From NCBI GenBank assembly GCA_029269845.2, contig CP149973.1, forward strand, positions 1,860,001 through 1,892,000: a stretch of 32,000 nucleotides of DNA, written 5' to 3'. The notes under the pieces were generated by a model. It saw nothing but the letters and a program-made list of their open reading frames with translations, did no database searches and was not told the DNA's origin. The first letter of the stretch is position 1. The number at the start of each line of letters is the position of its first letter. This DNA comes from Opitutia bacterium KCR 482 (GTDB taxonomy: Bacteria > Verrucomicrobiota > Verrucomicrobiia > Opitutales > Intestinicryptomonadaceae). Position numbers and translations under genes: made by a program. Below, in pieces: positions 1,167-30,721 of the stretch.

Positions 1167-2456
1167 ATGACAAAAAACGTAATCAGCATAATCATGGGCG
1201 GCGGGCGCGGCACGCGTTTGTATCCGCTTACGAAATACCGTTGCAAGCCCGCAGTTCCGCTCGCGGGCAAGTACAGGCTTGTGGACATTCCCATTAGCAA
1301 CTGCATAAATTCGGGTTTCGACAGCATTTACCTGCTCTCCCAATTCAACACGGCGTCGCTGCACAAGCACATTCAGCAGACATACAAGTTCGACTCGTTC
1401 GGAAACGGCTTCGTCGATATTCTCGCGGCCGAGCAGACAGATTCAGGCGGAGACTGGTATCAGGGCACGGCGGACGCCGTCCGCAAAAACATGCACCACT
1501 TCGAACGCCACGGCGAAGTCTGCCACTACCTGATTCTATCGGGAGACCAGCTCTACCAGATGAATTTCAAGGAAATGCTCAACAGGCATATCGCAAACAA
1601 TGCCGACATCACAATCGCCGCAAAGCCCATGCCAAAAAGCGAAGCGCCGAGCCTCGGCGTAATGCGCGTAAACGACAACCTCGAAATCGTCGAATTCGCC
1701 GAAAAGCCGAAAGACGAAAAAGTCATCAACTCCTTCCTCGTAGGCGACAACCTCAAACACAACCTCAAAGACCCAAATGCCGACTACTGCTTGGCGTCGA
1801 TGGGCATTTACATCTTCTCGCAGCACGTCTTGGAAGAGGCGATGTCGGGCAGCGAAATGGACTTCGGCAAGGAAATTATCCCCGGACTGCTCGGCAAGAA
1901 AAAACTCTGCGCCTACATCTTCGACGGCTATTGGGAAGACATCGGCACGGTAGGCGCGTTCTTCGAGGCGAACCTCGCCCTCACCGAACCCAACCCCGAA
2001 TTCGACTTCCACAAGCAGGACAAACCCATCTACACGCACTGCCGCTTCCTCCCCGGTGCGAAAATCTTCGGCACGAAAATCGACAGGGCGAACGTCGCGG
2101 ACGGGTCGGTCATTCGCGCGGACTCGCTCGAACGTTGCGTAATCGGGATTCGCTCGATTATCGAGGGCGGAACGTCGCTCAAAAACGTGATAATGATGGG
2201 CGCGGACTACTACGAATCGCAGGAGGAGCGCGAGTACAACGTTTCGAGGGGCGTGCCGCCAATCGGAATAGGGCGGAACTGCAAAATCGAAAACGCGATT
2301 ATCGACAAAAACGCGCGTATCGGCGACAACTGCGTGCTAAGCCCGAAAGGCAAGCCCGACAAATGGGAGGCGGAAGGCCTCTATGTAAGGGACGGCGTTC
2401 TGATTGTAACGAAGCAGGCTGTAATCAACTCTGGAACAATCGTAGACGGGGCGTGA
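1167..2456 (+). CDS. glgC: glucose-1-phosphate adenylyltransferase
   Basis: 429-aa ORF. The N-terminal nucleotidyltransferase motif is [43 protein letters not shown], followed by WYQGTADAV and a C-terminal beta-helix-like region. The last three codons and the stop (2445-2456) lie in the first arm of the downstream repeat. Confidence 0.93.
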
Positions 2457-2810
2457 AAGCACCGCCCTACGGCGTTTCTTGACGGGGCGTGAAAGCACCG
2501 TTGATGCGGCGTTTCGCGAGTGTCTCAGACTGCTCGCGTACGTCAGTACGCCACGCACCCTGAGCCACTCGCAAAGCCACCGCCTGAACGGCACTTTGAC
2601 GCCCCTAAAAAGTGAGCGCACGGCGCACGAAGATTTTAGAATGCGCTGGGATAAAAGTTGGGTAGGGCGTTTCGTCAGCTACCGTAGCGTTGGGAAATCC
2701 GAGTACGTCCCTAAAATTACAGAAAGCCACCGCCTGAACGGCACTCTAACGCGCCTAAAATTACAGCGCACGGCGCGAAGATTTTAGAGTGCTTTGGGAT
2801 AAAAGTATAG
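2445..2810 (+). repeat. array of long-hairpin repeat units, locus A: partial left arm 2445-2480, complete unit 2484-2605, tail 2606-2662, 5'-truncated unit ~2663-2755, tail 2756-2810
   Basis: The 20-nt GACGGGGCGTGAAAGCACCG occurs at 2445 and 2481. The 33-nt right arm AAAGCCACCGCCTGAACGGCACT.T.ACGC.CC occurs at 2573-2605 and 2723-2755. Each right arm is followed by a similar tail (TAAAA..GCGCACGGCGC..GATTTTAGA.TGC..GGGATAAAAGT). The same unit types recur at 16522-16868. Confidence 0.85.
2484..2605 (+). repeat. complete 122-nt long-hairpin unit A1
   Basis: The outer 17-nt arms GGGGCGTGAAAGCACCG and CGGCACTTTGACGCCCC are imperfect inverted repeats. The middle arms are GCGGCGTTTCGCGAGTG/CACTCGCAAAGCCACCGC and CTCAG/CTGAG. 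The apical stem is GCGTAC-GTCA-GTACGC. Confidence 0.85.
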
Positions 2811-2821
2811 CATATTGCATA

Positions 2822-2862
2822 GCGGAGAATCCTTGTTTGCGGATTCCCGCTTTTTCTTTTTT
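2822..2862 (+). terminator. rho-independent terminator-like hairpin inside the composite repeat (probable glgC terminator)
   Basis: GCGGAGAATCC-TTGTTTGC-GGATTCCCGC is followed by TTTTTCTTTTTT. A homologous hairpin with a T-run lies at 16879-16911. Confidence 0.6.
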
Positions 2863-2863
2863 A

Positions 2864-3226
2864 TCCGCGCAAAGCGCGTCTATTTTTTACCTGTTTCTCT
2901 CTAATGTTCGGCAATTTTAATCCTAGTAATTGGCGAAGCCAATACGGACTGATACAGAAAAGGCGCGGTTATAGCTGCGCCGCATAACAATTAAAAGGAG
3001 CGAAGCTCCGAAGAAAGGCGCGGCTCGCGCTCGAAGCTCCGACGGCTGGCGCACCTTGCGTCCGCGGCTCGCGCCCGTGTAGGCTGTTAGTCTGCCCAGC
3101 GGGGGGACAGGCGGGAGTTTTCGTGGTAGCGAAAACCGCCTTTTGGGGGCGGCAAGCCCCCTCTGTTGACCGGCGCGGCTCGCGCCCAAAAAAGGGTTGC
3201 GTTTGGTTTTGGGGGGTGGATAATGG
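2864..3226 (+). repeat. composite-repeat module 2, copy A (series of short GC-rich stem-loops; candidate structured RNA or DNA element)
   Basis: It shares ordered blocks with 16917-17186: TCCGCGCAAAGCGCGTCT; TAGTAATTG..CAATACGGACT; GGCGCGGTTATAGC.GCGCCGCATAA; AAAGGAGCGAAGCTCCGA; CCGGCGCGGCTCGCGCCCGTG.AGGCTG; GGGG.GGATAATGG. Copy A is longer and carries the GGCGCG-GCT-CGCGCC hairpin motif three times (3017-3030, 3062-3076, 3170-3187). Confidence 0.75.
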
Positions 3227-3247
3227 GGAGAAAATAATTGAACAGGT

Positions 3248-4426
3248 ATGAATCAGATTGATATATTCGGGCAGAACGCCGAGGTTTTTATCGGCGCGGA
3301 GGATTTGAAGGAGAAGCTTGCGGCTGGCAAGCGGTTGCGCGTCAAGTTGGGGGTAGACCCGACGCGCCCCGACCTCACGTTCGGGCACATGGTCGTTTTC
3401 AACAAACTGCGCCAGTTTCAGGATTTGGGGCATCAGGCGGTTTTGATTATCGGCGACTACACCGCATGTATCGGAGATCCCAGCGGTAGGAGCGCATTGC
3501 GCCCCGTCTTGACGCGCGAAGAGGTCATGGAAAACGCAAAGACCTACCTTGCGCAGGCGTTCAAGATTCTGGACGAATCGCGCACGGAGGTGCACTATAA
3601 CAGCGAGTGGTTCGGGGGAATGTCGTTCGGCGACCTGCTGAACCTCGCCCGCAAAATGACGGTCGCGAGAATGCTCGAACGCGACGACTTCGCAAAACGC
3701 TACGCGTCGAAGACGCCGATTTCGATAGTCGAATTTTTGTACCCGCTCGTGCAGGGCTACGACTCTGTTATGATAGAGTCCGACGTGGAGCTTGGCGGAA
3801 CCGACCAGCTTTTCAACAACCTTGTCGGGCGCGACTTGCAGCGCGACGCAGGGCAGTCGGGGCAGGCGGTAATCACAATGCCGCTTCTCGTGGGCTTGGA
3901 CGGCGAAAAGAAGATGTCGAAAAGCTACGGCAACTACATTGCGTTCAACGACTCCCCGCGCGACATGTTCGGGAAAATCATGTCCGTCGGCGACGACACG
4001 ATGTGGAAATACTACCAGTACCTTTTGCTCGAAACGCCCGAACAGATTGAGCGCATGAAGTCGGAACACCCGATGAAATGCAAGAAGAATCTGGCGTGTC
4101 TTATGGTCTCGCGCTTCTTCGGCGCGGACGTCGGCAGGGCTGAGCTTGAAAACTTCGAAAAGGTCTTTTCGAAAAACGAAATTCCCGACGAAATGCCCGA
4201 ATTTGCGTGGGATTCCGTCGCGCAGTCCGACAGCGCGCCGATTGTCAACGTCATGGCGGAGACAAAGCTTTTCCCGAGCAAGAAGGAGGTCCGCAGACTC
4301 ATCGAACAGGGCGCGGTAAAGCTCGATTCCGAGCGCGTTTCCGACCCGTTCCTTGCGCTGTCGCGCCCCGTAAATCCGCTGGTGTTGCAGGCGGGAAAGC
4401 GCGTGTTTTTCAGAATAATCCCGTAA
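3248..4426 (+). CDS. tyrS: tyrosine--tRNA ligase
   Basis: 392-aa ORF with a class I HIGH-region variant (PDLTFGH), GDPSGRS, the KMSKS motif (KMSKSYGNYI) and a C-terminal S4-like domain (EVRRLIEQGAVKLD). Confidence 0.93.
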   Translation: MNQIDIFGQNAEVFIGAEDLKEKLAAGKRLRVKLGVDPTRPDLTFGHMVVFNKLRQFQDLGHQAVLIIGDYTACIGDPSGRSALRPVLTREEVMENAKTYLAQAFKILDESRTEVHYNSEWFGGMSFGDLLNLARKMTVARMLERDDFAKRYASKTPISIVEFLYPLVQGYDSVMIESDVELGGTDQLFNNLVGRDLQRDAGQSGQAVITMPLLVGLDGEKKMSKSYGNYIAFNDSPRDMFGKIMSVGDDTMWKYYQYLLLETPEQIERMKSEHPMKCKKNLACLMVSRFFGADVGRAELENFEKVFSKNEIPDEMPEFAWDSVAQSDSAPIVNVMAETKLFPSKKEVRRLIEQGAVKLDSERVSDPFLALSRPVNPLVLQAGKRVFFRIIP

Positions 4427-11801: not shown

Positions 11802-11878
11802 CGAGGTGTAGCTTAGCCTGGTAGAGCGCTACGTTCGGGACGTAGAGGCCGGTGGTTCGAATCCACTCACCTCGACCA
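11802..11878 (+). tRNA. tRNA-Pro (anticodon CGG), CCA encoded
   Basis: Hand-folded cloverleaf. Acceptor stem is CGAGGTG/CACCTCG, D stem GCTT/GAGC, anticodon stem CTACG/CGTAG with loop TT-CGG-GA, and T arm GGTGG-TTCGAAT-CCACT. The discriminator is A, followed by CCA. Confidence 0.9.
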
Positions 11879-15697: not shown

Positions 15698-16522
15698 ATG
15701 GGTTTCGATATCTTCACGCTCAAAGGCAAAACGGCGCTCGCTTTTATCGCGGCGGCGTTCGCCGTGCTGTACATTCTTGCGGCGGGCGGCTGCGACTTCG
15801 GCAAAAGCGAAGTCGTAAAGGAGACCTCCGAAACCCATTTCGTTCGCGGTCAGGACGAACTCCGCAGGGGGAACGTCAAGGAGGCGATGAGCGCGTTCCT
15901 GAAAGTCGTTGAAAAACGCAAGGACGCGCCCGAATCGCATTTTGAATTGGGGCGTATATATCTCGACAATATGAACGACCCGATTCAGGCGATTTACCAT
16001 TTCAGAAAATTTCTCGAACTCAAACCGAACTCGCAGGTGTCGCCCATGGTGCGGCAGATGATTGAAACCGCGCAGAAAAAATTCGCGGCGTCCCTGCCAG
16101 AAAGCCCGTTCGAGAACAACGTGCGGCGGCTCGAATTGGAGGAGCTTCTCCAAAAAGTCCAGAAAGAGAACCTCGAACTCAAACAGCGTCTCGACGCCGC
16201 TGCAACCACGATAGAGTCGCTGAAAGCTTCGCAAAAGGTAAGCGTGGCGTCGGCGAGAGGCTCGCGCGAGGCGGCTTCGTCGGAGCGCAGACAGCAGCAG
16301 ACCCAACGCGCTGGCACGGCGCAAGCCCAACAGCAGACGGTCGAGGTAAGGCGCGACACGCCGTCGACGTACACGGTAATGCCTGGTGATACGCTTTCAA
16401 ACGTAAGCAGAAAAGTCTACGGAACAAAAAACAGGTGGCGCGAGATTTTCAACGCCAACCGCGACAGAATGGCGACGCCCGAATCCCTAAAACCGGGGCA
16501 GGTGTTGCGAATCCCGAGGTAG
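15698..16522 (+). CDS. LysM domain protein with N-terminal membrane anchor, TPR-like and coiled-coil regions
   Basis: The C-terminal LysM is TYTVMPGDTLSNVSRKVYGTKNRWREIFNANRDRMATPESLKPGQVLRIP. The N-terminal hydrophobic segment is ALAFIAAAFAVLYILAAGGC. Confidence 0.75.
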   Translation: MGFDIFTLKGKTALAFIAAAFAVLYILAAGGCDFGKSEVVKETSETHFVRGQDELRRGNVKEAMSAFLKVVEKRKDAPESHFELGRIYLDNMNDPIQAIYHFRKFLELKPNSQVSPMVRQMIETAQKKFAASLPESPFENNVRRLELEELLQKVQKENLELKQRLDAAATTIESLKASQKVSVASARGSREAASSERRQQQTQRAGTAQAQQQTVEVRRDTPSTYTVMPGDTLSNVSRKVYGTKNRWREIFNANRDRMATPESLKPGQVLRIPR

Positions 16523-16868
16523 GCGCGTGAAAGCACTTCCCTAAGGGCGTTTCTAACGGGGCGTCATAGCACCAGTCTAAGGGCGTTTCACGCGCGACCC
16601 AGACCGCTTACATACGCCAAGTATGCTACGCGCCCTGTTTCGCGCGTAAAGCCGACCTTATACTGGCACTTTGACGCCCCTAAAAACGGCGCGTTATAGC
16701 ACCGTTAATGCGGCGTTTCCCCGCATGCGCAGACCGCTCGCGTACAAAAGTACGCCACGCGTCCTGCGCATGCGTGAAAGCCACCGCCTGAACGGCACTC
16801 TAACGCGCCTAACAAATGAGTGCTAACGCACAAAGTTTTTTAGAATGCGTCGGGATAAAAGTTGAGTT
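16522..16868 (+). repeat. array of long-hairpin repeat units, locus B: partial left arm 16522-16556, complete units 16558-16680 and 16688-16809, tail 16810-16868
   Basis: The architecture and arms match 2445-2810. The outer arms are GGGGCGTCATAGCACCAG/CTGGCACTTTGACGCCCC (B1) and GGCGCGTTATAGCACCG/CGGCACTCTAACGCGCC (B2). The tail ends TTTTAGAATGCGTCGGGATAAAAGTT. Confidence 0.85.
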
Positions 16869-16878
16869 GATTGGTAAG

Positions 16879-16911
16879 CAGAGAATCCAAGTTTGCGGAT
16901 TTCCGTTTTTT
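16879..16911 (+). terminator. rho-independent terminator-like hairpin inside the composite repeat (probable terminator of the LysM gene)
   Basis: GAGAATCC-AAGTTTGC-GGATTTCC is followed by GTTTTTT. It is homologous to 2822-2862. Confidence 0.5.
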
Positions 16912-16916
16912 CTTTC

Positions 16917-17186
16917 TCCGCGCAAAGCGCGTCTGTTTAAATTAGTTTCTTTTCAGTGTTAAGCATTTCCCGATGTTAGTAATTGCCAGTGGCAATACGG
17001 ACTAAACGGGGATAGGCGCGGTTATAGCCGCGCCGCATAATCACAGAAAGGAGCGAAGCTCCGACGCCGTGCAGGCTGTAGCCTGCCGAAGTTCCGACGA
17101 CCGGCGCGGCTCGCGCCCGTGCAGGCTGCCAGCCTGTTGTAATTTGGGCAGTGTGTAGGCGTTTACCCAATGGGGGCGGATAATGG
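16917..17186 (+). repeat. composite-repeat module 2, copy B
   Basis: It has the same ordered blocks as 2864-3226. Hairpins: ATTGCC-AGT-GGCAAT (16982-16996), GGCGCGG-TTATAG-CCGCGCC (17015-17034) and GGAGC-GAA-GCTCC (17050-17062). Palindromes: GCAGGCT-GT-AGCCTGC (17071-17086) and CAGGCTG-C-CAGCCTG (17122-17136). Confidence 0.75.
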
Positions 17187-18177
17187 TTGATTTTGCGGGT
17201 GAATTTTTTCTTGTAAGAATATTTCGGTGTAGAATGTCGGAGAGGTTTTGCATGGCGATTATTCCGACGTCCCTGTTTTTTTGCTTCATGCCCGCGAATC
17301 GGCGTTCGTCTACTTCAAGCGTTGCAAGCCCGATGTCTCTTGGAACTTTCAGCCCCGCTTCTTCGAGCCATTCTTTTATATAGGATTCAAGGCAGAGTAT
17401 GGCGTCGGGCTTGTATTTTTTCAGCCAGTGGAAAAATTTTTTCTTCCGCTCTTTGTCCTTTTCGACGTAGAGAAAGGGCGGTATTCTCGATTTTTCGTCC
17501 AAGTTTATCTGCCCGCGCAAAAAGCCGCCCGTGAACCTGCCGTCTATGAGAAAGTCGATGTTGCCAGTAGTGGCAAGGCCGGGGCGTTTGTATCCGTATT
17601 CGATAATTTTAAGTGTTGAATAGTATGAAATAAGGAATTGGTCTGTAATTACGAAGTCTATTTCGGGATTTTTTGTCCGCAGTCCCGCCGAAATGAAATT
17701 GTATTTTTTTGCCAGCCGCGCGTACTGCTTTGGAAACATGTTTTTGTCGAGCAGCCCGGTCATTATCGCGCCCCTGATGTTTCTCGACTTGAAAATGGAG
17801 TCGAGCTTTTGCGGCGACATTGCGCGCGCGTCCAGATAAAATTCCTCCACGCAATAGCCGAGCCTGTCCGCCTCGCTCTTTATTCCCGATACGATTTCGG
17901 GGAAAGTCGGCTTGATTTCGAGCGTGTCGGACTTCGTGTAGAGTAGGGCAACGGTTTCCTGCTGCCAGTCCGTCTTTTTCGATTTCATCGCGCTCATCGC
18001 CGCGCTGATGAAGCCGTTTTTTTTGTATCCTAGCTTTCTCGCCGCCTCCCTTACCCGTTTTTTCGTCTCGTTCCTGATTTTGTCGGAGCCGTTCAATGCC
18101 ATCGAGACCGTAAATTTCGAAACGCCCGCATATTCGGCGATGTCTTTCATTGTTGTTCGGTTTTGTGAGCTGTTCAT
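17041..18177 (-). CDS. LacI-family transcriptional regulator
   Basis: The N-terminal HTH is TTMKDIAEYAGVSKFTVSMALNG, followed by a periplasmic-binding-protein-like core. An alternative start is M10 at 18150. The last ~48 codons (17041-17186) are encoded by repeat module 2. Confidence 0.85.
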   Translation of the reverse strand: MNSSQNRTTMKDIAEYAGVSKFTVSMALNGSDKIRNETKKRVREAARKLGYKKNGFISAAMSAMKSKKTDWQQETVALLYTKSDTLEIKPTFPEIVSGIKSEADRLGYCVEEFYLDARAMSPQKLDSIFKSRNIRGAIMTGLLDKNMFPKQYARLAKKYNFISAGLRTKNPEIDFVITDQFLISYYSTLKIIEYGYKRPGLATTGNIDFLIDGRFTGGFLRGQINLDEKSRIPPFLYVEKDKERKKKFFHWLKKYKPDAILCLESYIKEWLEEAGLKVPRDIGLATLEVDERRFAGMKQKNRDVGIIAMQNLSDILHRNILTRKNSPAKSTIIRPHWVNAYTLPKLQQAGSLHGREPRRSSELRQATACTASELRSFL

Positions 18178-20431: not shown

Positions 20432-21966
20432 ATGAATAATATACTGAAAATATCATTGTGCTTGCTGTCGGCTACCGCCGCCGCAAACGCCGACGAATTT
20501 GTCGGCAAGCCGGAAAGCGTAGGCAGGACTTGGCTCTCAAACCTAAACAACACAAAGGAAGCCGTTTTGGTTTCCACGCCTTCCGAGACTACGGGAGCTT
20601 TTTATGCGGGAAACGGGCAAACCATGAAAAAAATGACGGTTGTCGACAGGTCGTCGGGCAGCGACGAAGTCGGCGACGCCAACATCGCGTTCGATTTCAC
20701 GTTGGACGCAAATTCCGTCGACGCCGCGCAAGTACTCTCGGTAAAGAACTTGACTCTCAAATCTTCGAATGCAGTCGTAACAAACACGGCGTCTTCGTCC
20801 GTGCTTGTGTCTCTCGACATCAACAAGCTTGTTCTCGACGGCGAAAATTGGGGGAGCGGCGGCTACCAGACTCAGAAGCTTACCTTCAAAAACGTCAATG
20901 CAAAAGTGAACACCGCCGACACCACGCAAATCGGAATTACCGCTGGCACGTCTTCCTCTATTACGATTGATTCTGGCGCGAATGTCGAGTGGAATGGCAA
21001 TATCCATGCGGGAAAGCGGAATACCGAGTTCGTGTCAAACTCAGGTTTGTTCGTCAACGGCACGCTTTCCATGAACGGCAGCATTGCCGTCTACGGATAC
21101 GCGTCGGTCGGCGAGGGCGGAGTGTTGAACATGAACGGAAACAATTTGTCGATTACGGGCACTGTCGACATTTGGGGAACTGTAAACTTCGGCTCGCCGA
21201 AAAATTCCGACAGCAGAATCTACAATTACGGCGCGCTTAACATCAACAGTGCAAATCCCGCGTCGCAGCTCGTTTTTTACAATATAGATTCGCAGTACGG
21301 CGGCTCGGTGAATCAGGCGGTAGCAACGGGCGCGAATACCGGCATAAGGATCAAGGGGGTAGCCCAAATCTACAACGGCTCGAATTGGACGGTTAACGAA
21401 AAGCTGGAGCTTCAAGGCAGCGACGCCTCGAACATCGCGCAACTGAACCTTCGCGAAAACGGCGCGGCGGTAAGGTTTGTCGTTGGCGACGGGCAGACTG
21501 CGCGCTTTGCTCTTTTGGGAAATTCGCGCGCAACAATAAATGCGGTAGACTCTATTTCGACGAAAGACGGCGGCGCGGTCAAGCTTCTCGTTGAAGGCGA
21601 CAACAACAGTCTGGTTTTGGGGCGGCGCAGTCGTTCTCCGAAATGGAATTGAACGGAAATCTCGAACTAACCCTTTCCGCCGGCGCGCAACTCTTCCTCA
21701 CGGGCGAAACCGCGCCGACGCTTTCCATAGCCGACGGGAAATTGTTTACCATATATAATTTTATGGAAGAAACCATTTATGTCGGCGAAAATTTTGACTA
21801 CGCCGTTCTCCTCAAAATAAAGGCATACAATTCGTCGATGGAGCTTTTGCAAATCGGCGTAAAGGACGGTTTTCTGACTTCGTCGATACCCGAACCCGCC
21901 GAATGGGCGGCGGTTTTCGGGGCGTTCGCGCTCGGCTTTGCCGCGTACCGCAGACGCAGGCAGTAG
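20432..21966 (+). pseudogene. PEP-CTERM-anchored surface protein with beta-helix-like repeats, split by a 1-nt frameshift near 21619-21622
   Basis: ORF 20432..21652 carries the signal peptide MNNILKISLCLLSATAAANA. ORF 21643..21966 ends in the PEP-CTERM sorting signal IPEPAEWAAVFGAFALGFAAYRRRRQ. The second frame is open from 21595. One extra G in the TTTTGGGG run would give a continuous ...SLVLGAAQSFSEMELNGN... Confidence 0.7.
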
Positions 21967-21980: not shown

Positions 21981-22016
21981 GACGGCAAGCGGGTCTGCCG
22001 CTTGCCGTCTTGTTTT
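21981..22016 (+). terminator. rho-independent terminator
   Basis: A perfect 12-bp stem, GACGGCAAGCGG (21981-21992) / CCGCTTGCCGTC (21998-22009), has loop GTCTG and is followed by TTGTTTT. Confidence 0.8.
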
Positions 22017-22035
22017 CAATGCCTTGCTTTGTGTG

Positions 22036-23184
22036 ATGTATAAATATTTTATAAAAACCGCTATTTTAGCCGTCGCGGGAGTTTCGGCGGCATTTGCTTC
22101 GACGTCCGACGCGGCGGACATTTCAAAACTCGACAAAAATTTCGTTTCGGAAAAAGTCGAAGGTCTTGACGTTGTCTATCGCAACGCGCTCGAATCCCCG
22201 TTTGTCTTGGAGGGCTTCCCGTGGCGTTCGAAAGACGCGTCGGGCGGCGCTTTGTACAGGCTGCCGCGCGCGCTTGCGGCGGGAGACGTCGGAAGCGGAG
22301 TCTTGGAGCTTGCAAAGCACACGGCGGGGGGCGTCGTGCGCTTCCGCACCGATTCGCGGCATATCGTGCTTCGCGCCGAAATACAAAGGCTCAATCCCAA
22401 CCTCGGGCACATGCCCGCCGCCGGCTCGTCGGGCTTCGACGTTTTCCGCAACCGCACTGTCCACATCAAAACAATCAACCCCGCAAATTGGGAAAGCAGG
22501 ATTCCGTCGTCTCTCGTAGCCGTTGTGTGCAAGTCTGCCCCAGCCGAAATGTGCGACTACACAATTTACCTGCCGCTTTACAACGGACTGCGCTCGCTCG
22601 AAATAGGGCTTGTCCCGAACGCGAAAATCGAAACGCCTACTCCGCACAAAATCGGGAAACCCATTCTCTTCTACGGTTCGTCGATAACGCAGGGCGGGTG
22701 CGCTTCCAGAACTTCAAACGCATACGCCGCAATGCTCTGCCGCGAACTCGACGCTCCCATGATAAACCTCGGATTTTCGGGGAACGCAAAGGGCGAACCG
22801 AAAATCGCCGAGCTTATCGCCTCCCTCGACCTTTCCGCGTTCGTCTACGATTACGACTACAACGCCCCCAGCGTCGGACATCTGAAAAACACCCATGAAC
22901 CGTTCTTCAAACTAATCAGAAAAGCCCGCCCGAACCTGCCTATTGTCATACTCGGCAGAATCACAAACGCCGAACCCGAACGCGAAAAAATTGTGCGGAA
23001 GACCTATGAGAACGCGCTGGAATCGGGCGACAAAAAAGTTTGGTATGTGGACGGCCAAAAACTTTTAAGCGGCGCGGACATTTCCTACCTTACCGTTGAC
23101 AACTGCCACCCTAACGACTTGGGCTTCTTTCTTATGTTTAAAAACAGCCTGCCCGTTTTGAAACGCGCGCTGAACGCGCGGTAG
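22036..23184 (+). CDS. SGNH/GDSL-family hydrolase with an N-terminal beta-sandwich-like domain
   Basis: It has a signal peptide (MYKYFIKTAILAVAGVSAAFA), SGNH block I (FYGSSITQGG) and block V (DNCHPND). I prefer the ATG at 22036 over the TTG at 22024. Confidence 0.8.
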   Translation: MYKYFIKTAILAVAGVSAAFASTSDAADISKLDKNFVSEKVEGLDVVYRNALESPFVLEGFPWRSKDASGGALYRLPRALAAGDVGSGVLELAKHTAGGVVRFRTDSRHIVLRAEIQRLNPNLGHMPAAGSSGFDVFRNRTVHIKTINPANWESRIPSSLVAVVCKSAPAEMCDYTIYLPLYNGLRSLEIGLVPNAKIETPTPHKIGKPILFYGSSITQGGCASRTSNAYAAMLCRELDAPMINLGFSGNAKGEPKIAELIASLDLSAFVYDYDYNAPSVGHLKNTHEPFFKLIRKARPNLPIVILGRITNAEPEREKIVRKTYENALESGDKKVWYVDGQKLLSGADISYLTVDNCHPNDLGFFLMFKNSLPVLKRALNAR

Positions 23185-23315
23185 ACGCCCGCCCGCGGCG
23201 GCGCGGCATTGAGCAACCTCTGCCGGTTCGGGCGCATTGCGGTCTATTTGAGAAAGTCGGCGGTTGCGTCTACAATTTTTTCCCCGATGTGTTTCGCGTT
23301 TTCGGGCGTTGCTTT

Positions 23316-23705
23316 TCATTTGCCCGAAATGTTTGTGTAGGGAATTTCGAGCGACGCCACAAACCCGACCGACGGCAGCCTTTTCGCCCAAAACTTGAAG
23401 TTTGCGTGGTCTTTCAGCCTGTTCCGCATAGTGCCGTATTTTACGATGTCGTCAGGGTTCAGCTGCGGGCGGTCGGGGCTTTTAGCAAGCTCGTTCGAGA
23501 GCGACGCCATGAATTTTTCGAGATTTCTGTTCGCCTTTTCGGATTGCGGCGCGGTGAAAAACAGCCTGTCGTTTATGTCTTTCGGGTTGCGCTTCGAAAT
23601 GTACGGGCAGTGTATGTCGAGCGCGTAGCGTAGCTTGCCGCGCCCCATTCGGGCAGCGTCTGCTTTATCGCGCGGACGTGTTCCCTGCGTAGTGTCGGAA
23701 ACGCG
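23316..23705 (-). pseudogene. 5'-truncated gene fragment, possibly the C-terminal half of an M14-like zinc carboxypeptidase
   Basis: ORF 23316..23648. Its frame stays open upstream to 23763, but GC-rich sequence stops at about 23705. ALDIHCPY and ASLEIPY resemble the second Zn-His region and the catalytic-Glu region of M14 enzymes. No HxxE-bearing N-terminal half is present. Confidence 0.4.
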
Positions 23706-23797
23706 ATAAAATTCAGTAATGGAGTGGCATAGATTAGAGGCAAATTTTACGTATCTGCTCTTTCAATGTAGTGTAATTGAACGCAGGCAAATAAAAA

Positions 23798-23833
23798 CGC
23801 GGGGTCATACTAAAATGATTCCGCGCTTTTTTT
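23798..23833 (+). terminator. terminator-like hairpin in an AT-rich spacer
   Basis: The stem is CGCGGGGTCAT (23798-23808) / ATGATTCCGCG (23815-23825), with two G-U pairs only when read as plus-strand RNA. It is followed by CTTTTTTT and preceded by AAAAA. No plus-strand gene lies immediately upstream. Confidence 0.45.
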
Positions 23834-24269
23834 CAAAATGGGGTGGTATTTTGTGCTCAAATTCCAAAATTCTCTATCTTATGTAATTTTTTTATATGTA
23901 ATCTGATCCTCTTTATTTAACATCCGTGATGTAGAAAATGTAGAAATTATGAGATGTATTTGAATCAAGCGATAAAAGAAATTGTTTTTGCCATGAGAGT
24001 TTGGCGACCACGTAAATATAACACAATTCAGAGTAGTTCGTGATAAAGTTTATTTGTATGGTAGTGCAAACAGAGTCAAAACTCAAGAACCCAATTGATA
24101 AATCAACATCCTAGTTCAGATTACTAAATATTGGAAATGGATTTCTGATCGTGCGATATGGATTATTCGACCTTTCTTGCAGTTATACATGCAAAAACAT
24201 TTTATATTATATTGATTTTCTAGGTTGAAAAGTCACACAACGCTGACGCGCCAATTAGTTGTTATTTTG

Positions 24270-25940
24270 TTATGATTTTCTAATGATTGTTATTGGCATA
24301 TTGGACAAAAGTGTTTCATTTTCATGAGATAATGTTGGGATGTATATTGCTAAATTGTTTTTGGCTCGACTAATTGCAACATAATAGACTCTTTGTTCAT
24401 CTTTGTTTTCATCCAAATTTGGTGCAGTCAAAAATTTTATATCTTTTTCCTCCCCCAAAACAACCATAACGTTTTTGAACTCATCGCCTTTTGCTCTATG
24501 AATTGTTTTATCTCGTATCATCGATATATCAGGAGGCATTATGCACAACGCAAACTCTGAATAAGTATGATTTGAATAAAATGTTTTAGCCGCGCCATTT
24601 CGAAGACCTGTAACACTTATCCCCAAATCATTTTTCAAGTATAAGATAAAATAATCTAAACTTTGAGTCTTATATGTGGGATAATCTTTAATGAGTTTGC
24701 GTATTAGCTCAATTTGTATGCGAGAATCATCGGCTATCTTTTTTATGGATTTCAACGAATCGTTAATTGCACACATCAAGCCATATTCTATTGCACAAAC
24801 GCAATTATGTAATATCTGTACGCGATTCCAGTTGCTATCAGGAATCGAATTAAGTAGATTTTCATTCTTCGGTATTTCTCCTAACTGTTTTCTCAGTGCA
24901 TTGGATGTAAGTTTTGCATAAGATAATGTTATGATGTCGCCATTACAACGTTTCTTGAATTCATTGTAACACAAAACAACATCACCAATATATAGAATTG
25001 GCTTGTCTGAATGGTGCCTGTCTATGGAATATTGTTTCAAATCGGGACGGATAATATTCAAAAGAGAAATTATTTCTTCACTACACCGCCTATTCCCTTT
25101 GATCTCATACAGTTGCATTCCCACAAGTGAAAATTTATCAAACAAATTTGGATCTGTCCCTGCAAACCCGTAGATTGCTTGTGCTTTATCGCCAATAACT
25201 CCAATAACAGAATGGGATGCAGATGCTATCTTATTTAATATTTCAACTTGGATTGGGGTAGAGTCTTGAAATTCATCTACGAATATATATGGATACTTTA
25301 CACTAATGATATGTACAATAAATGGATAATTTTCCATCAATCTGTATGCAAAATACAAAACGTCATCATAGTGCATAACGCCATGTTCCCAAGTATATTT
25401 CTTATATTCATCGTAAAATGATTGGGATATTGTATAGTCTGAAAGTTTTATAGGATATTGGGGTTTGAATTTTAAGTTTCCATCTACAAATTTCCAAGAG
25501 GAGGAGAATAATGCTTTTTTTAATGCATTATCATCTTTATAGAATTTTTTGTTGATTCTTTCCTTTATTTTATACAGTGTACCTCCGTCTGTCATCATTG
25601 TGTCGTCAACGACCTTGAGCTTTTCTATTGCGAAGCCCTCTGCCTCTGCAATGAAATGGAAATATGGCTTGATTATATTATCATACAGGAAACTATGAAT
25701 TGTACAGACATCAACTCTTTCTGCGCAATCCGGTAAGCGATGACGTATGGTTTCTACACCGACATTGGTATAGGTGATACAGGCTATTTTCTTAATCTTG
25801 CCAAGACGTTTAGACTTTGCCAGCACATTTTTTATATGTTGGATTAACCAATAAGTTTTTCCTGCACCAGGTCCCGCTTTTACCAAAAAATTTTGTTCTG
25901 TATCTATCAGTGTATCTGATTTTATTGCTGAAACAGCCAT
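24270..25940 (-). CDS. gajB: UvrD/PcrA/Rep-like SF1 helicase (GajB-like)
   Basis: 556 aa. Motifs: I AGPGAGKT, II IFVDEFQDS, III IGDKAQAIYGFAG, IV NRRCSEEI, V TIHRAKGDEF, VI YYVAISRAKNNL. Its start overlaps the upstream OLD-family gene by 19 nt. Confidence 0.85.
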   Translation of the reverse strand: MAVSAIKSDTLIDTEQNFLVKAGPGAGKTYWLIQHIKNVLAKSKRLGKIKKIACITYTNVGVETIRHRLPDCAERVDVCTIHSFLYDNIIKPYFHFIAEAEGFAIEKLKVVDDTMMTDGGTLYKIKERINKKFYKDDNALKKALFSSSWKFVDGNLKFKPQYPIKLSDYTISQSFYDEYKKYTWEHGVMHYDDVLYFAYRLMENYPFIVHIISVKYPYIFVDEFQDSTPIQVEILNKIASASHSVIGVIGDKAQAIYGFAGTDPNLFDKFSLVGMQLYEIKGNRRCSEEIISLLNIIRPDLKQYSIDRHHSDKPILYIGDVVLCYNEFKKRCNGDIITLSYAKLTSNALRKQLGEIPKNENLLNSIPDSNWNRVQILHNCVCAIEYGLMCAINDSLKSIKKIADDSRIQIELIRKLIKDYPTYKTQSLDYFILYLKNDLGISVTGLRNGAAKTFYSNHTYSEFALCIMPPDISMIRDKTIHRAKGDEFKNVMVVLGEEKDIKFLTAPNLDENKDEQRVYYVAISRAKNNLAIYIPTLSHENETLLSNMPITIIRKS

Positions 25941-27967
25941 GTCATTGCTTCTTTAATATAATTAGGTATGTTGAATATCTTACGTTCTTTCTCCTGTTTT
26001 TCCAAGTTTTCTTTCAATACAATTGACAAATCCAATGCGTTTTCTCCTTTCCCGACAGAGTTAAGATAACGTGATGCCAATAATGCTTTCTTTTTATCGG
26101 AATCAGCCCAAGTGCAACATTTCAAAGATTCTTTGATTCGTTCGTTTTCTTTTGATTCTCGTAAAAAATCCATACATGCTGGATAGTCTTCTTTTTGAAT
26201 TTTTTTTAATTCGCTTATATTTGATAATCCTTCAACAAACAATAAATCTGATGTAGAGTTGAACAACATCAAATCGTATTCCAACGTCTTTCCTTTGTCT
26301 ACATCCTGACTATATACCCTGATATTGGGATGATTACGATATTTATCAATCAATTCACTTGAATGTTCTTTGTACTCATAACCATCTTTTCCTTTTTCAA
26401 AGGGGTAGCAGCATTCAAAGGGTTCATTATTTTTTGCTCTCCATGCAGGATCTCTGTCTGTAAGACATACAACTTTTTTTGATATAGCCAAAGGATTACG
26501 GATTGTATCAAATAGTTTCAAGAAATGCGAGAAATAGCGACCGCCGCAGCTTATTATTGCAACATGACTGTCCTCAATATTTTTCCCCATATAATTCACA
26601 AAGACTGGAATTAACAACTCTTCTGCTTTCCCTTCGACAAGGCATACTCTATCTGCAAATAACATATCTGATTTTATCGCATCCATAAATCTCTGGACAT
26701 ATTGTTTTGAGATTTTATCATTGTAATTGCTTTCGAATAATTTACCCGGATAAGCAATAGAAACTTGCTTGGTTATGTCATTATAAAGACAAATCAATTC
26801 ATCCAATGAGACCGCAGACGTTATTTCTGTGGAATGTGTAGTAACAAACAGTTGCCGTACTTTCTTTTCTTTTATTTGTTCATCCTTTAGATATTTTAGA
26901 AATTTGTATTGGAGTGACAAATGCAGGTGTGCTTCTGGTTCTTCGATAGCCAGTACAGAAAATACTTTTGCGTTCTGCCTGTAATATCCTTCATCTGTAT
27001 TGGCTTGCATCTTTGCTAAAAGTAACGACATATAAATAAGATTGTTGTATCCCAATCCATTATGGGTGGCGGCAATATCTATTCCCGTCCTATGTCTTAT
27101 TATCAATTGGAGAACTGCCAAGAAATCGGATTCGGAAAGTGTTCCACTGAAATCAGGTTCCGCGCCCTGAAAATCAGATGCACCAGTTTGTTTTGCGTAA
27201 TCAAGGATTTTATTTTTTCCGTGTGTTAATCGCTCTTTAACTTTATCAAGAGATACTTGAATGTTGTCTGTGAATTCAGAATGTCTATTGCTTATTTCTG
27301 TATTTTGGGTTTCTCTTGATTTTATCTTGTCACACTTTATTTCGTAATCCATAAAGAAGTTTAAGACTTCACGAAGCAGCGGAGACCGTCCGGAAAATAA
27401 ATCTCGTTCGACATCGCGTATTGGACCAAGAAATTCAAAATCTATTTTGTCAACAGTTTCCCCGTCTAATCTTGCTTGATTGGATGGGTTTCCTGCCCAC
27501 ATACGGGCTATATATTTTCGAAGATACTCATCTCTTATAATATCCCAAATATTGGCAGAAGTACTCATTCCCGATACTACATTTTTATATTCTGCTTCAT
27601 CTTCTTGGGGTAAGTAATACTCGTATGTAATTTGAGCTTCGTATGGATGTAACAAGTTGATCAGACAAGGAGCTACCATTACTAAATCTTCAGAATCAGC
27701 ATCTTCTCCTTGGCTTTCCTTAAAATAAACTTCTATGCGAACCTTTGGAGCAGCAGATTTTAAGTCGTCAATACTACAATTTCTACAAAAATCATACAAA
27801 GTGAGTCTTTTGGCGGTATCAGTATTTAGCACCAAGTCTAAGGCACGTAATAAGTTGCTTTTCCCTGCATTATTAGGACCAATGATAACGTTTATTCCAT
27901 CGTGGAACTCTATTACCTTATCTTTGAAATTTCTGTACCCCTTAATATGAATCTTTGATATATACAT
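25922..27967 (-). CDS. gajA: OLD-family ABC-ATPase / Toprim nuclease (GajA-like)
   Basis: 681 aa from the ATG at 27967, which has AGGA 5 nt upstream (the ORF-track GTG is at 28000). Motifs: Walker A GPNNAGKSN, signature-like THNGLGYNNLIYMSLLL, Walker B FSVLAIEEPEAHLH, H-loop LFVTTHS, Toprim Glu CLVEGKAEELLIP and DxD VVCLTDRD. About 170 aa follow the DxD. Confidence 0.85.
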   Translation of the reverse strand: MYISKIHIKGYRNFKDKVIEFHDGINVIIGPNNAGKSNLLRALDLVLNTDTAKRLTLYDFCRNCSIDDLKSAAPKVRIEVYFKESQGEDADSEDLVMVAPCLINLLHPYEAQITYEYYLPQEDEAEYKNVVSGMSTSANIWDIIRDEYLRKYIARMWAGNPSNQARLDGETVDKIDFEFLGPIRDVERDLFSGRSPLLREVLNFFMDYEIKCDKIKSRETQNTEISNRHSEFTDNIQVSLDKVKERLTHGKNKILDYAKQTGASDFQGAEPDFSGTLSESDFLAVLQLIIRHRTGIDIAATHNGLGYNNLIYMSLLLAKMQANTDEGYYRQNAKVFSVLAIEEPEAHLHLSLQYKFLKYLKDEQIKEKKVRQLFVTTHSTEITSAVSLDELICLYNDITKQVSIAYPGKLFESNYNDKISKQYVQRFMDAIKSDMLFADRVCLVEGKAEELLIPVFVNYMGKNIEDSHVAIISCGGRYFSHFLKLFDTIRNPLAISKKVVCLTDRDPAWRAKNNEPFECCYPFEKGKDGYEYKEHSSELIDKYRNHPNIRVYSQDVDKGKTLEYDLMLFNSTSDLLFVEGLSNISELKKIQKEDYPACMDFLRESKENERIKESLKCCTWADSDKKKALLASRYLNSVGKGENALDLSIVLKENLEKQEKERKIFNIPNYIKEAMTWLFQQ

Positions 27968-28290
27968 TTTTATCCTAAGTATTTTTTGTCGTCGATGCAC
28001 AAACCTTATTCTAATTTTCGTATACCTTCACAAACTATAAAGCAATCACAAAATTCATAGAATTCTTTAATATGGCTTACAATGCTTTTGTTGTTTTTGC
28101 GACTTTTTAACTCCTTAGTCCGAGTTTATTCAATTTACAAAGTTTCTCATTTTTTACTTTGTTGCTACAAACTCTCTCTTTAAGCGTTGGATTCCTTTTG
28201 TCCATATTCGTTTTAGCCGTTTTTGTTTTAAACATATCAAATATAATATTTTTAGTTTTTCATCTAATCGCCGAATTTTATAACAGCAAT

Positions 28291-28353
28291 TTGCCAAACT
28301 ATAAAATAAAAACTTGCCAAACACCACAATGCAATGTAGCTTTTTGGCATAAT
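28291..28353 (+). promoter_or_regulatory. candidate promoter/operator region of the ATPase gene
   Basis: The direct repeat TTGCCAAAC occurs at 28291-28299 and 28314-28322. An extended -10-like TGGCATAAT lies at 28345-28353, about 20 nt upstream of the ATG at 28373, with GGAAAGGG as a possible RBS. No good -35 element is seen. Confidence 0.3.
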
Positions 28354-28372
28354 AGAAACGGAAAGGGCTTTT

Positions 28373-29647: not shown

Positions 29648-29735
29648 GCATGGGGATTTATGCCGATTTTTCAGTAACAGTCGAACTCGCGATTGTTTGC
29701 GGCGAATTGTTGGTTTTCATATGATATTGTAAAAA

Positions 29736-30146
29736 ATGGATACCGTGTCGAAGAAGAAACGCTCGGAAATGATGTTCAAGATCCGTTCGAAGGGAAACAA
29801 AAGTACGGAACTTAGGCTTGTTGCGTTGTTTCGGGAATACGGAATCACCGGATGGCGCCGCAACTCCAAGTTGGTGGGGCATCCTGATTTCGTCTTCCCG
29901 AAATACAGGGTTGCCGTATTCGTGGACGGATGTTTTTGGCACGGATGTCGGATTTGCAACAAAAGCCATTTACCGAAAACCCACAAGACGTTTTGGCGCA
30001 ATAAAATCGAAGCAAATGTAAAGCGCGACAGAAAAGTCACGCGCGAACTCGGAATTTTGGGGTACAAGGTAGTCCGCATACGGGAGTGTTCGCTTAAAAA
30101 ATCGCCCAAAGCCCAAATAGGACGTATATTGAAAAGACTCGGATGA
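29736..30146 (+). CDS. vsr: very short patch repair endonuclease
   Basis: 136 aa. KKKRSEMMFKIRSKGNKSTELRL...GHPDFVFPKYRVAVFVDGCFWHGC...PKTHKTFWRNKIEANVKRDRKVTRELGILGYKVVRIRECSL is colinear with E. coli Vsr (SKNM..I...DT..E..L, PG.PDFV, GCFWH.H.C, FW..KI..N..RD, WEC). Confidence 0.9.
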   Translation: MDTVSKKKRSEMMFKIRSKGNKSTELRLVALFREYGITGWRRNSKLVGHPDFVFPKYRVAVFVDGCFWHGCRICNKSHLPKTHKTFWRNKIEANVKRDRKVTRELGILGYKVVRIRECSLKKSPKAQIGRILKRLG

Positions 30147-30215
30147 AACTCGTACCCGCTCGGGTTACGGCAATATTTCCGTCCGTTTGAATAGCATTTG
30201 AAATCAGGGTATTGG

Positions 30216-30550: not shown

Positions 30551-30668
30551 ATTTTAATATTATAGTAGACGATGCTCTTCGTGAAAATCCGACTGAAAGA
30601 GTAAAAATTGCAACAAAATTTAACGAACGATTGAAATGTTTCAAAATATTGGCAATTTTGGTTGATAT

Positions 30669-30721
30669 TGCCGATATTTTGCAAAAGATAGGCAATAAAT
30701 AAAAAAAATGCCGATATTTTG
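30669..30721 (+). promoter_or_regulatory. candidate AbiEi operator (13-bp direct repeat) upstream of abiEi
   Basis: TGCCGATATTTTG occurs at 30669-30681 and 30709-30721, 40 bp start to start. The second copy ends 14 nt before the ATG at 30736. An overlapping inverted repeat, TATTGCC..GGCAATA, is also present. Confidence 0.35.

What the first reader, a model, noticed from the sequence alone, without database searches (positions are those of the whole stretch)
2445..2810. Family of ~122-nt long-hairpin repeat units with compensatory substitutions, sitting between stop codons and terminators
There are three complete units: A1 2484-2605, B1 16558-16680 and B2 16688-16809. Each folds on paper into one long imperfect hairpin with 17-nt outer arms, a middle stem and an apical stem-loop. 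Differences between copies are largely compensatory. In the outer stem, GGGGCG/CGCCCC (A1, B1) becomes GGCGCG/CGCGCC (B2). In the middle stem, CTCAG/CTGAG (A1) becomes CGCAG/CTGCG (B2), and GCGAGTG/CACTCGC (A1) becomes ACGCGCG/CGCGCGT (B1). The apical stem is kept while its loop changes: GCGTAC-GTCA-GTACGC versus GCGTAC-AAAA-GTACGC. A 2x2 mismatch (GCACCG opposite CGGCAC) is conserved in all three units, so the asymmetry looks selected rather than a product of decay. At both loci the array begins at or within a few nucleotides of a plus-strand stop codon (glgC, LysM gene) and ends about 60 nt before an intrinsic terminator. The units would therefore be transcribed as 3' UTR. Possible identities are a REP/BIME-like or MITE-like element, an mRNA-stabilizing 3' structure, or a folded single-stranded DNA substrate for a recombinase.
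Basis: seen in the sequence. Interest (0 to 1): 0.65.

Follow-up and report, generated by a model that had tools for sequence, protein, structure and literature searches.

The report
Stop-codon-hugging long hairpin repeat family
The ~122-nt hairpins are real members of a multi-copy, fast-changing family of palindromic repeats in uncultured gut Opitutales; each array starts at the stop codon of a gene and heads a larger mosaic block that also carries the gene's terminator, much like the REP/BIME repeats of E. coli but longer and more elaborate.

Summary
Three full ~122-nt hairpins sit at the stated coordinates (fold z about -9). They belong to a family found next to at least 38 different genes in gut Opitutales (CAG-312 lineage) assemblies. 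Covariation is strong: 28 of 46 pairs change on both sides. The units are not free-standing. They form the 5' module of 260-900-nt mosaic blocks: hairpin(s), a conserved tail, a plus-strand intrinsic terminator, then further small compensatory hairpins. The window blocks are 2446-3190 and 16522-17140. A sister species has only 96 nt between glgC and tyrS, so the block is an insertion. In nine assemblies with identical TyrS the spacer ranges from 478 to 805 nt. Arrays are co-oriented with the upstream gene, and its stop codon lies inside or within 18 nt of the first arm. The arm carries stops in two frames. The minus strand folds better in 66 of 68 distinct units, whereas the adjacent terminator has its wobbles on the plus strand. 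There is no Rfam, plasmid or phage match, and no transposase nearby. Verdict: a new, unusual variant of REP/REPIN/BIME-type repeats. The mobilising enzyme and the active molecule remain unknown.

The parts
2446..2483 (+). Left half-unit (outer arm plus middle box GGCGTTTC, then TTGAC). It contains the glgC stop TGA at 2454-2456.
   Evidence: The last two glgC codons (Gly-Ala) and the stop are encoded by the arm.
2484..2605 (+). Full hairpin unit A1.
2606..2662 (+). Tail module, copy 1: TAAAA, small GCGC-ACG-GCGC hairpin, then GAAGATTTTAGAATGCGCTGGGATAAAAGT.
   Evidence: (families D2, D7).
2663..2755 (+). Degenerate unit lacking its left arm (model positions 21-123).
2756..2810 (+). Tail module, copy 2.
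2822..2888 (+). Plus-strand intrinsic terminator (GCGGAGAATCC...GGATTCCCGC plus T-run), followed by a second small hairpin CGCGCAAAGCGCG plus T-run.
   Evidence: Across copies the G.U pairs are 25 on the plus strand against 1 on the minus strand.
2924..3011 (+). Module 4: three small hairpins (ATTGGC-GAA-GCCAAT 2929-2943, GGCGCGG-TTATAG-CTGCGCC 2962-2981, GGAGC-GAA-GCTCC 2997-3009) joined by conserved linkers ACGGACT and GCATAA.
   Evidence: (D3).
3012..3190 (+). Module 5: short REP-like GC-rich hairpins (CGCGGCTCGCGCCC three times, GTGTAGGCTGTTAGTCTGCC and others). A 111-nt stretch between two CGCGGCTCGCGCCC copies is absent in another assembly.
   Evidence: (D9, D11).
16522..16557 (+). Left half-unit. 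The G of the LysM-gene stop TAG (16520-16522) is arm base 1.
16558..16680 (+). Full hairpin unit B1.
16688..16809 (+). Full hairpin unit B2, separated from B1 by TAAAAAC.
16810..16866 (+). Tail module.
   Evidence: (D7).
16878..16940 (+). Plus-strand terminator hairpin with T-run, plus the CGCGCAAAGCGCG hairpin.
16977..17140 (+). Modules 4 and 5. The convergent LacI-family ORF (17041-18177, minus strand) takes its last ~35 codons from them.
   Evidence: (D3, D9, D11).

Best explanation
The hairpins are a lineage-specific family of long palindromic interspersed repeats of the REP/REPIN/MITE kind. They form the leading module of BIME-like mosaic blocks inserted at the 3' ends of genes in gut Opitutales (CAG-312 lineage).

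Shown:
- Each unit is a ~55-bp imperfect helix. Three sequence-conserved boxes (base arms, middle box GGCGTTTC/AAAGCC, 34-nt apex) are separated by stems whose sequence is free but whose complementarity is kept.
- The blocks are insertions, and their unit content changes quickly between strains.
- They sit in one orientation at the stop codon of the upstream gene and carry stop codons in two frames, followed by a tail and a plus-strand terminator.
- Pairing is better preserved on the strand complementary to the mRNA.

Inferred:
- The units multiply and are exchanged between loci as a folded single strand, most likely minus-strand DNA. A trans-acting, still unidentified enzyme (HUH/Y1 RAYT-like or another structure-specific recombinase) would read the conserved boxes, above all the apex.
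- Copies persist at ORF ends because the element restores a stop codon and supplies a terminator. The block therefore works as a ready-made 3' end for the gene.
- As an unavoidable by-product, or as a co-opted function, the plus-strand copy is transcribed as a very stable 3'-UTR hairpin. It would act like REP elements do, as a barrier to 3' exonucleases and a structure that the terminating ribosome must partly open.
For: Family size and spread:
- 15 loci in MAG UBA4654, which is 96% identical to the window.
- 50 metagenome stretches matching the apex pattern and 102 nhmmer hits.
- At least 38 distinct upstream genes.

Structure:
- 49 distinct units give 90.9% paired cells. 28 of 46 pairs change on both sides.
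- The covariation score is 0.407, against 0.128 for shuffles (0 of 500 reach it) and at most 0.135 for slid controls.

Conserved boxes:
- Human-gut contigs (group 3) keep only the 34-nt apex, with entirely different stems.
- Another lineage keeps the arms and middle box but has a different apex.

Insertion and turnover:
- A sister species has glgC-TAG, 96 nt, then tyrS in the same synteny. GlgC homologues end ...SGTxV*, while the window clade adds DGA*, with Gly-Ala-stop encoded by the arm.
- Nine assemblies with identical TyrS have spacers of 478-805 nt with different unit types.
- Three different arrays sit after the same LysM gene, and another relative has an empty LysM site.
- Contigs frequently break at the elements.

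Context:
- All 23 distinct group-1 genes have their stop between -18 and +12 of arm position 1. Ten stops lie inside the arm, always in the same frame.
- 8 of 8 group-3 genes use the TGA or TAA at arm positions 2-4.
- Downstream genes are co-directional (15) or convergent (9).

Strand:
- The minus strand is more stable in 43/43, 9/9 and 14/16 units of the three groups. G.U pairs number 265 against 51 and 33 against 3 in groups 1 and 2.
- Polymorphic A.C/C.A occupies 11 pair columns (43 cells), against 5 columns (6 cells) for G.T.
- The neighbouring terminator shows the opposite bias, 25 against 1.

Known REPs are likewise mostly less than 20 bp from ORF 3' ends, between unidirectional or convergent genes (PMC3733652).
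Against: - No transposase or recombinase gene recurs next to the elements in about 580 kb of sampled loci. Whole genomes could not be scanned.
- No target-site duplication could be demonstrated. The left flank AC and right flank TAA are constant, but their status as element or target is unresolved.
- Units are never seen without the tail or another unit to their right, so independent mobility of the 122-nt unit is not shown. Turnover could be homologous recombination or gene conversion alone.
- Part of the between-assembly variation may be metagenome mis-assembly at repeats.
- The strand asymmetry rests on related copies and so on few independent events. It cannot distinguish single-stranded DNA from antisense RNA.
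- The tight stop-codon placement is looser in group 2, where stops lie between -63 and +6.
Confidence: 0.6

Rival explanations
1. A purely cis-acting mRNA element. The plus-strand hairpin would be a selected 3'-UTR structure, an mRNA stabiliser or a translation-termination/decay signal, with the apex bound by an RNA-binding protein. Its spread would be incidental.
For: The stop codon is embedded in or abuts the first arm in dozens of genes and always in the sense orientation. A plus-strand terminator follows. The pattern of conserved boxes with covarying stems is typical of protein-bound RNAs. REPs close to stop codons are known to be transcribed (PMC3733652).
Against: Wobble pairs are concentrated on the other strand, and the plus strand carries about 6 A.C mismatches per unit. 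The minus strand folds better in 66 of 68 units, while the true plus-strand RNA element next door (the terminator) shows plus-strand G.U. Unit type and number at a given gene differ between near-identical strains, which is hard to reconcile with gene-specific regulation. Sister species lack the element at the same genes.
Confidence: 0.17
2. An antisense RNA. The minus strand of each unit would be transcribed from a promoter in the tail, giving a hairpin-capped RNA that runs into the 3' end of the upstream gene.
For: The minus strand is the better-folding strand in RNA terms, with 265 G.U pairs against 51. The tail is highly conserved and contains TAAAAT-like hexamers on the minus strand.
Against: No sigma-70-like promoter is conserved. 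Locus B has none on either strand, and the one minus-strand match in locus A lies elsewhere. The -35 position falls in poor or variable sequence. The composite carries hairpins followed by T-rich runs on the minus strand, upstream of the unit in that direction. The scan flags GGAGCTTCGCTCC and GCGCGAGCCGCGC in locus A and the former in locus B; by eye the GGCGCGG hairpin also has such a run. There is no Rfam match.
Confidence: 0.1
3. attC-like sites of an integron-type cassette system. This would be suggested by the size similar to the 123-126-nt Vibrio repeats, the folding of the strand complementary to the ORF, and the overlap with the stop codon.
For: The length, the position overlapping the ORF's stop, the strand preference and the structure-over-sequence conservation all resemble attC.
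Against: The defining R''/R' boxes (RYYYAAC ... GTTRRRY at the hairpin base) are absent, and the GTT/AAC-like motifs are in the reverse order. In attC the apex is variable and the base conserved, whereas here the apex is the most conserved part. The flanking genes are dispersed housekeeping genes in both orientations, not a cassette array. No integrase is present in the window.
Confidence: 0.03

Closest known systems
REP elements, BIMEs and REPINs (E. coli, Pseudomonas, Stenotrophomonas; GTAG/CGTC-tagged families, PMC3733652)
   Same: High-copy extragenic palindromes with sub-families that differ by complementary stem changes. They cluster with other repeats into mosaic blocks. They lie mostly within 20 bp of ORF 3' ends, between unidirectional or convergent genes. 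They are transcribed as 3' UTR and act as hot spots of rearrangement. REPINs fold into hairpins of about 100 nt.
   Different: The unit here is a single 122-nt hairpin, not a 20-40-nt REP or a doublet of two self-palindromic REPs. No unpaired GTAG/CGTC tag was found. The apex, not the ends, is the part conserved across genera. The stop codon is built into the arm. No RAYT was found, though whole genomes could not be searched.
ERIC/IRU (127 bp, enterobacteria) and Correia/NEMIS elements and neisserial intergenic mosaic elements
   Same: Imperfect palindromes of 100-150 bp, co-transcribed with neighbouring genes, sometimes overlapping ORF ends. They are embedded in mosaic intergenic regions and are polymorphic between strains.
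   Different: There is no sequence similarity and no TA target duplication. The orientation relative to the upstream gene is fixed. The three-box architecture and the opposite-strand wobble bias have no described counterpart that I know of (own knowledge).
Integron attC sites (e.g. Vibrio cholerae repeats)
   Same: Single-strand hairpins of 60-140 nt defined by structure. They are active on the strand complementary to the ORF and often overlap its stop codon.
   Different: The R''/R' core sites are missing. The pattern of conserved and variable regions is inverted. There is no cassette array or integrase.
IS200/IS605-derived non-autonomous elements (PATEs)
   Same: Asymmetric non-coding elements with hairpins at an end, no evident target duplication, a constant short motif (AC/TRAC) 5' of the hairpin, and strand-specific folding.
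   Different: No TnpA or TnpB gene and no second-end hairpin of matching type were identified. The right boundary of the block is variable.

Membership tests
REP/BIME | Many interspersed extragenic copies per genome | tested here: met
   At least 18 arm matches in 15 contigs of one fragmented MAG, 26 OGFM01 loci, and at least 38 distinct flanking genes overall.
REP/BIME | Short (20-40 nt) imperfect palindrome with an unpaired GTAG or CGTC tag at one end | tested here: not met
   The unit is 122 nt and its flanks are AC and TAA. CGTC occurs only inside the paired arm of some copies.
REP/BIME | Location close to ORF 3' ends, between unidirectional or convergent genes | tested here: met
   compare PMC3733652.
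REP/BIME | Combination with other conserved motifs into mosaic clusters | tested here: met
   Hairpin(s), tail, terminator and modules 4/5 occur in constant order in about 20 of 30 tails aligned.
REPIN-RAYT | Single-copy RAYT (Y1 HUH) gene flanked by the repeats | not testable with these tools
   None among ORFs in about 580 kb of element-bearing loci. Whole genomes could not be scanned.
REPIN-RAYT | Hairpin made of two inverted REPs with conserved ends and a variable spacer | tested here: not met
   By eye the arms showed no consistent internal palindrome; this was not computed. The apex is the most conserved part across lineages.
MITE | Terminal inverted repeats, small size, no coding capacity | tested here: met
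   The 17-nt arms and a compensatory variation pattern incompatible with coding.
MITE | Target-site duplication flanking each copy, and unique flanks on both sides | tested here: not met
   No duplication was seen. The right flank is always the tail or another unit.
MITE | Parent IS with the same ends | not testable with these tools
   None in the sampled loci, plasmids or phages.
Integron attC | R'' RYYYAAC and R' GTTRRRY at the base of the hairpin | tested here: not met
   Inspection of all arm variants.
Integron attC | Array of promoterless cassettes next to intI | tested here: not met
   Flanks are glgC, tyrS, a LysM/TPR gene and LacI, with no integrase in the window.
Intrinsic terminator | GC-rich hairpin followed directly by a U-tract | tested here: not met
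   The long hairpin is followed by TAAAA. A separate hairpin 65-70 nt downstream meets the definition.
Any Rfam 15 family | Covariance-model match | tested here: not met
   Only tRNA-Pro at gathering score. Nothing credible at E up to 10 in either locus.

The most novel reading that the evidence does not exclude
The three-box hairpin, with its apex conserved across genera, is the substrate of an as yet unrecognised strand-specific single-stranded-DNA recombination or transposition system. This system would install and exchange ready-made 'stop codon + 3' UTR + terminator' cassettes precisely at the ends of open reading frames. It would be gene-direction-coupled and integron-like in logic, but it would act on gene ends of housekeeping genes rather than on cassettes.
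Probability: 0.15. Interest if true: 0.75.

Novelty: new variant of a known kind. Interest (0 to 1): 0.5.

Why it matters
Interspersed palindromic repeats are well studied in Proteobacteria but hardly at all in Verrucomicrobiota or in uncultured gut bacteria. Three features of this family could be informative.

1. **Stop-codon precision.** The placement is nucleotide-precise and orientation-fixed, with stops built into the arm. This gives a clean system for asking whether such repeats are targeted to gene ends or merely retained there.

2. **Opposite strand signatures.** The hairpin has minus-strand wobbles and the adjacent terminator has plus-strand wobbles. This is an internal, sequence-only way to tell which strand of a repeat is under structural selection.

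3. **A conserved 34-nt apex.** It is shared across genera whose stems are unrelated, which points to a specific unidentified binding protein.

There is also a practical side. The blocks break assemblies and probably cause chimeric joins in MAGs of this lineage, and they rewrite the C-termini of proteins such as GlgC and LacI.

Tried and rejected
- **Rfam.** Searches at gathering score and at E up to 10 gave only chance microRNA/sRNA hits.
- **Public collections.** BLAST of the whole block against plasmids and phages gave no match. The apex pattern gave no match in viral contigs.
- **Transposase search.** All-against-all clustering of 1,945 ORFs from element-bearing loci found no recurrent transposase-like family. 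The one cluster shared by all three groups next to hairpins turned out to be ribosomal protein S1 and PNPase joined by S1 domains.
- **The ORF between the units in L017.** It is a PEP-CTERM protein, not a transposase.
- **ORF 2969-4069 (minus strand).** It is spurious and overlaps tyrS.
- **attC reading.** Rejected because the core sites are missing.
- **Group II intron domain V and sigma-54 promoter resemblances.** Checked by eye and dropped. Rfam also has no intron hit.
- **Promoter scan.** The sigma-70 scan found no promoter conserved at both loci.
- **Target-site duplications.** Sought at unit and block level in groups 1 and 3 and not found.
- **Right boundary of the block.** It could not be fixed, because CGCGGCTCGCGCCC-type repeats occur both inside the block and possibly in the native spacer.
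- **GC skew.** It is weakly positive on the plus strand, too weak to use for a replication-strand argument.
- **Mutational bias.** By inference only, cytosine deamination of the exposed non-template or lagging-template strand would predict plus-strand wobbles, the opposite of what is seen. It was therefore not adopted as the cause of the asymmetry.
Full report
**1.

The three units reported at 2484-2605, 16558-16680 and 16688-16809 exist. Each folds into one long imperfect hairpin. As plus-strand RNA the energies are -71.7, -65.9 and -68.6 kcal/mol, with z-scores of -9.0, -8.9 and -8.4 against dinucleotide shuffles. The arm motifs occur only at these two loci in the 32-kb window and far more often than chance: 4 right arms against 0.04 expected, and 5 left arms.

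**2. The repeated entity is larger than reported**

The two intergenic regions are 2446-3190 (between glgC and tyrS, both on the plus strand) and 16522-17140 (between a LysM/TPR gene on the plus strand and a LacI-family gene on the minus strand). They align over about 700 nt with 77% identical columns. The modules come in a constant order:

- an optional left half-unit;
- one to three hairpin units;
- a conserved tail (TAAAA, a 4-bp hairpin, then GAAGATTTTTAGAATGCGCTGGGATAAAAGT);
- a plus-strand hairpin with a T-run;
- a second small hairpin;
- a module with three small hairpins and conserved linkers;
- short GC-rich REP-like hairpins.

The same order and orientation recur at other loci. The small hairpins also vary by complementary changes. 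ORF 2969-4069 on the minus strand is an artefact overlapping tyrS.

**3. Copy number and host**

A left-arm pattern scanned over one genome per species hit 15 stretches of a single MAG, Opitutia bacterium UBA4654. All other hits were single matches in unrelated taxa, taken to be chance; none of them matched the unit model. The window is 96% identical to UBA4654 contigs. It is 99-100% identical at protein level to contigs of metagenome OGFM01.

An apex pattern found 50 metagenome stretches and no viral contigs. A profile of the unit gave 102 hits in about 580 kb. They fall into three groups:

- the window's own family;
- a diverged family with the same arms and apex but other stems (JGI contigs);
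- a human-gut lineage in which only the 34-nt apex (GACYGCTCRCGTAC, a 4-5-nt loop, GTACGCCACGCRYCC) is retained inside a hairpin of otherwise unrelated sequence.

A further relative keeps the arms and middle box but has a different apex. Names attached to identical proteins place the clade in Opitutales, 'Verrucomicrobia bacterium CAG:312'.

**4. Structure**

On 49 distinct units, 90.9% of cells are standard pairs, and 28 of 46 pairs show changes on both sides (374 cells). The covariation score is 0.407. Column shuffles give 0.128 (0 of 500 reach the observed value), and structures slid by 1-3 columns give at most 0.135.

Variation is modular. The base arms, a middle box (GGCGTTTC opposite AAAGCCRCC) and the apex are conserved. 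The two intervening stems exist as several alternative 'alleles' that differ at most positions yet stay complementary. Chimeric units, with a left half of one type and a right half of another, also occur.

**5. Strand**

The 'conserved 2x2 mismatch' is C.A/A.C on the plus strand, which is tandem G.U on the minus strand.

- Over 68 distinct units, the minus strand is the more stable RNA fold in 43/43, 9/9 and 14/16 units of the three groups. Group-1 means are -80.3 against -63.1 kcal/mol.
- G.U pairs number 265 against 51, 33 against 3 and 46 against 32.
- Within the consensus pairs, polymorphic A.C/C.A occupies 11 columns (43 cells), against 5 columns (6 cells) for G.T.
- Several 'unpaired' positions are fixed A.C, for example A46.C77 in 49 of 49 units.
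- The terminator hairpin about 70 nt downstream serves as a control and shows the reverse pattern: 25 plus-strand G.U against 1 in 11 distinct variants.

So two adjacent elements of the same block carry opposite strand signatures. The terminator behaves as a plus-strand RNA element. The long hairpin appears to be selected for pairing on the complement of the mRNA. The sequence cannot say whether that molecule is single-stranded DNA or an antisense RNA. No promoter is conserved at both loci.

**6. Context**

After dereplication by upstream protein, 38 distinct genes have a co-oriented ORF ending at the array.

- In the window's family, all 23 stops lie between -18 and +12 of arm position 1.
  - Ten lie inside the arm and always in one frame (GGS GCG TGA, or GGS GCG TYA TAG).
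  - Four are TAA or TGA followed by C immediately before the arm.
  - Two are TAG sharing its G with the arm.
  - 20 of the 23 left flanks end in AC.
- In the human-gut group, 8 of 8 genes stop at the TGA or TAA at arm positions 2-4.
- In the diverged group, stops lie between -63 and +6.

Downstream genes are co-directional (15) or convergent (9). Since the stop is in or next to the arm, there is no room for a terminator before the hairpin. The plus-strand copy must therefore be part of the upstream transcript unless transcription ends inside it (inference).

**7. Insertion and turnover**

- *Empty site at glgC.* GlgC homologues end ...SGTxV*. The window's clade carries three extra residues, DGA*, of which Gly-Ala-stop are arm-encoded. 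A sister species (GlgC 88% identical; NCBI GCA_944389195.1) has glgC-TAG, 96 nt, then tyrS, with the same downstream genes. The roughly 700-nt block is therefore an insertion.
- *A decaying copy.* A 91%-identical species has a degenerate unit at the glgC stop and two different downstream arrangements.
- *Strain variation.* Eight further assemblies encoding the identical TyrS all link glgC to tyrS. Their spacers range from 478 to 805 nt and differ in number and type of units, half-units and distal modules.
- *The LysM locus.* After the LysM gene, the window has a half-unit plus B1 plus B2. OGFM01 has one unit of a third type, and UBA4654 has one A1-type unit. A relative has no unit there.
- *Assembly breaks.* Many contigs end inside the elements, and one assembly joins tyrS to a different upstream region.

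Some of this variation may be assembly error at repeats. The consistent glgC-tyrS linkage across nine assemblies with different internal content argues that much of it is real.

**8. What was not found**

There is no Rfam family and no similarity to plasmids or phages. No recurrent transposase-like ORF lies near the elements. No target-site duplication was found. The attC core sites are absent.

**9. Interpretation**

The data fit a lineage-specific family of long palindromic interspersed repeats embedded in BIME-like mosaics. REP families are also high-copy and diversified by complementary stem changes. They are clustered with other repeats and mostly lie less than 20 bp from ORF 3' ends, between unidirectional or convergent genes. 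Opitutus terrae, another member of the class, is rich in REPs (PMC3733652).

Four features set this family apart:

- the single 122-nt three-box hairpin;
- conservation of the apex rather than the ends;
- stop codons built into the arm;
- the opposite-strand wobble signature.

I infer that units multiply and are exchanged as a folded minus strand recognised by an unidentified protein. Blocks would persist at ORF ends because they restore a stop and provide a terminator. The transcribed plus-strand copy would behave as a REP-like 3'-UTR structure. The enzyme, the active molecule, the exact ends of the mobile unit and any effect on expression are not established.

**10. Caveats**

- All related sequences come from metagenome assemblies.
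- ORFs were called mechanically.
- Copies are related by descent, so cell counts overstate the number of independent events.
- The genome-wide search for an enzyme could not be done with the tools available.

Noticed in passing
window 22000-32000: Low-GC island (GC 0.35-0.43 against 0.56 elsewhere). It holds a Gabija-like pair on the minus strand: an OLD-family AAA_15+TOPRIM ATPase at 25922-28000 and a UvrD-like helicase at 24270-25940. It also holds a DUF4143 ATPase (28373-29647), a Vsr G.T-mismatch endonuclease (29736-30146) and an AbiEi/DUF6577 protein (30736-31458). It is probably a horizontally acquired defence island.
   Followed up: partly
window 30635-30728: An AT-rich inverted repeat with 47-nt arms, 77% complementary and with no spacer, just upstream of the AbiEi-like gene.
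   Followed up: no
window 17041-17150 (minus strand): The LacI-family ORF takes its last ~35 codons from repeat modules 4/5. The same peptide motif (GREPRR...) appears in the spurious ORF over the other locus, so the element has rewritten this protein's C-terminus.
   Followed up: partly
window 2929-3009 and 16982-17062; L017 6090-6175: The three small hairpins of module 4 vary by fully complementary changes: ATTGGC/GCCAAT against ATTGCC/GGCAAT, GGCGCGG/CCGCGCC against GCGGCAAG/CTTGCCGC with a conserved TATA loop, and GGAGC/GCTCC against GGAAC/GTTCC. The linkers ACGGACT and GCATAA stay fixed. This looks like a second structured element in its own right.
   Followed up: partly
window 3063-3187: A 111-nt segment bounded by direct repeats CGCGGCTCGCGCCC is present in the window but absent in the OGFM01 assembly of the same locus.
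   Followed up: partly
L148 2875-2990 (glgC 3' end): A truncated unit is followed by GTAGAC, the last glgC codons of the other allele, and then a second unit. This is either a recombinant between two strain alleles or an assembly chimera.
   Followed up: no
window 20432-21966; L107 1800-10635: A protein family with no Pfam match (about 400-530 aa) is present once in the window and as five tandem paralogues in a related genome.
   Followed up: no
window 11802-11878: tRNA-Pro (CGG), the only Rfam or ARAGORN hit in the window.
   Followed up: yes
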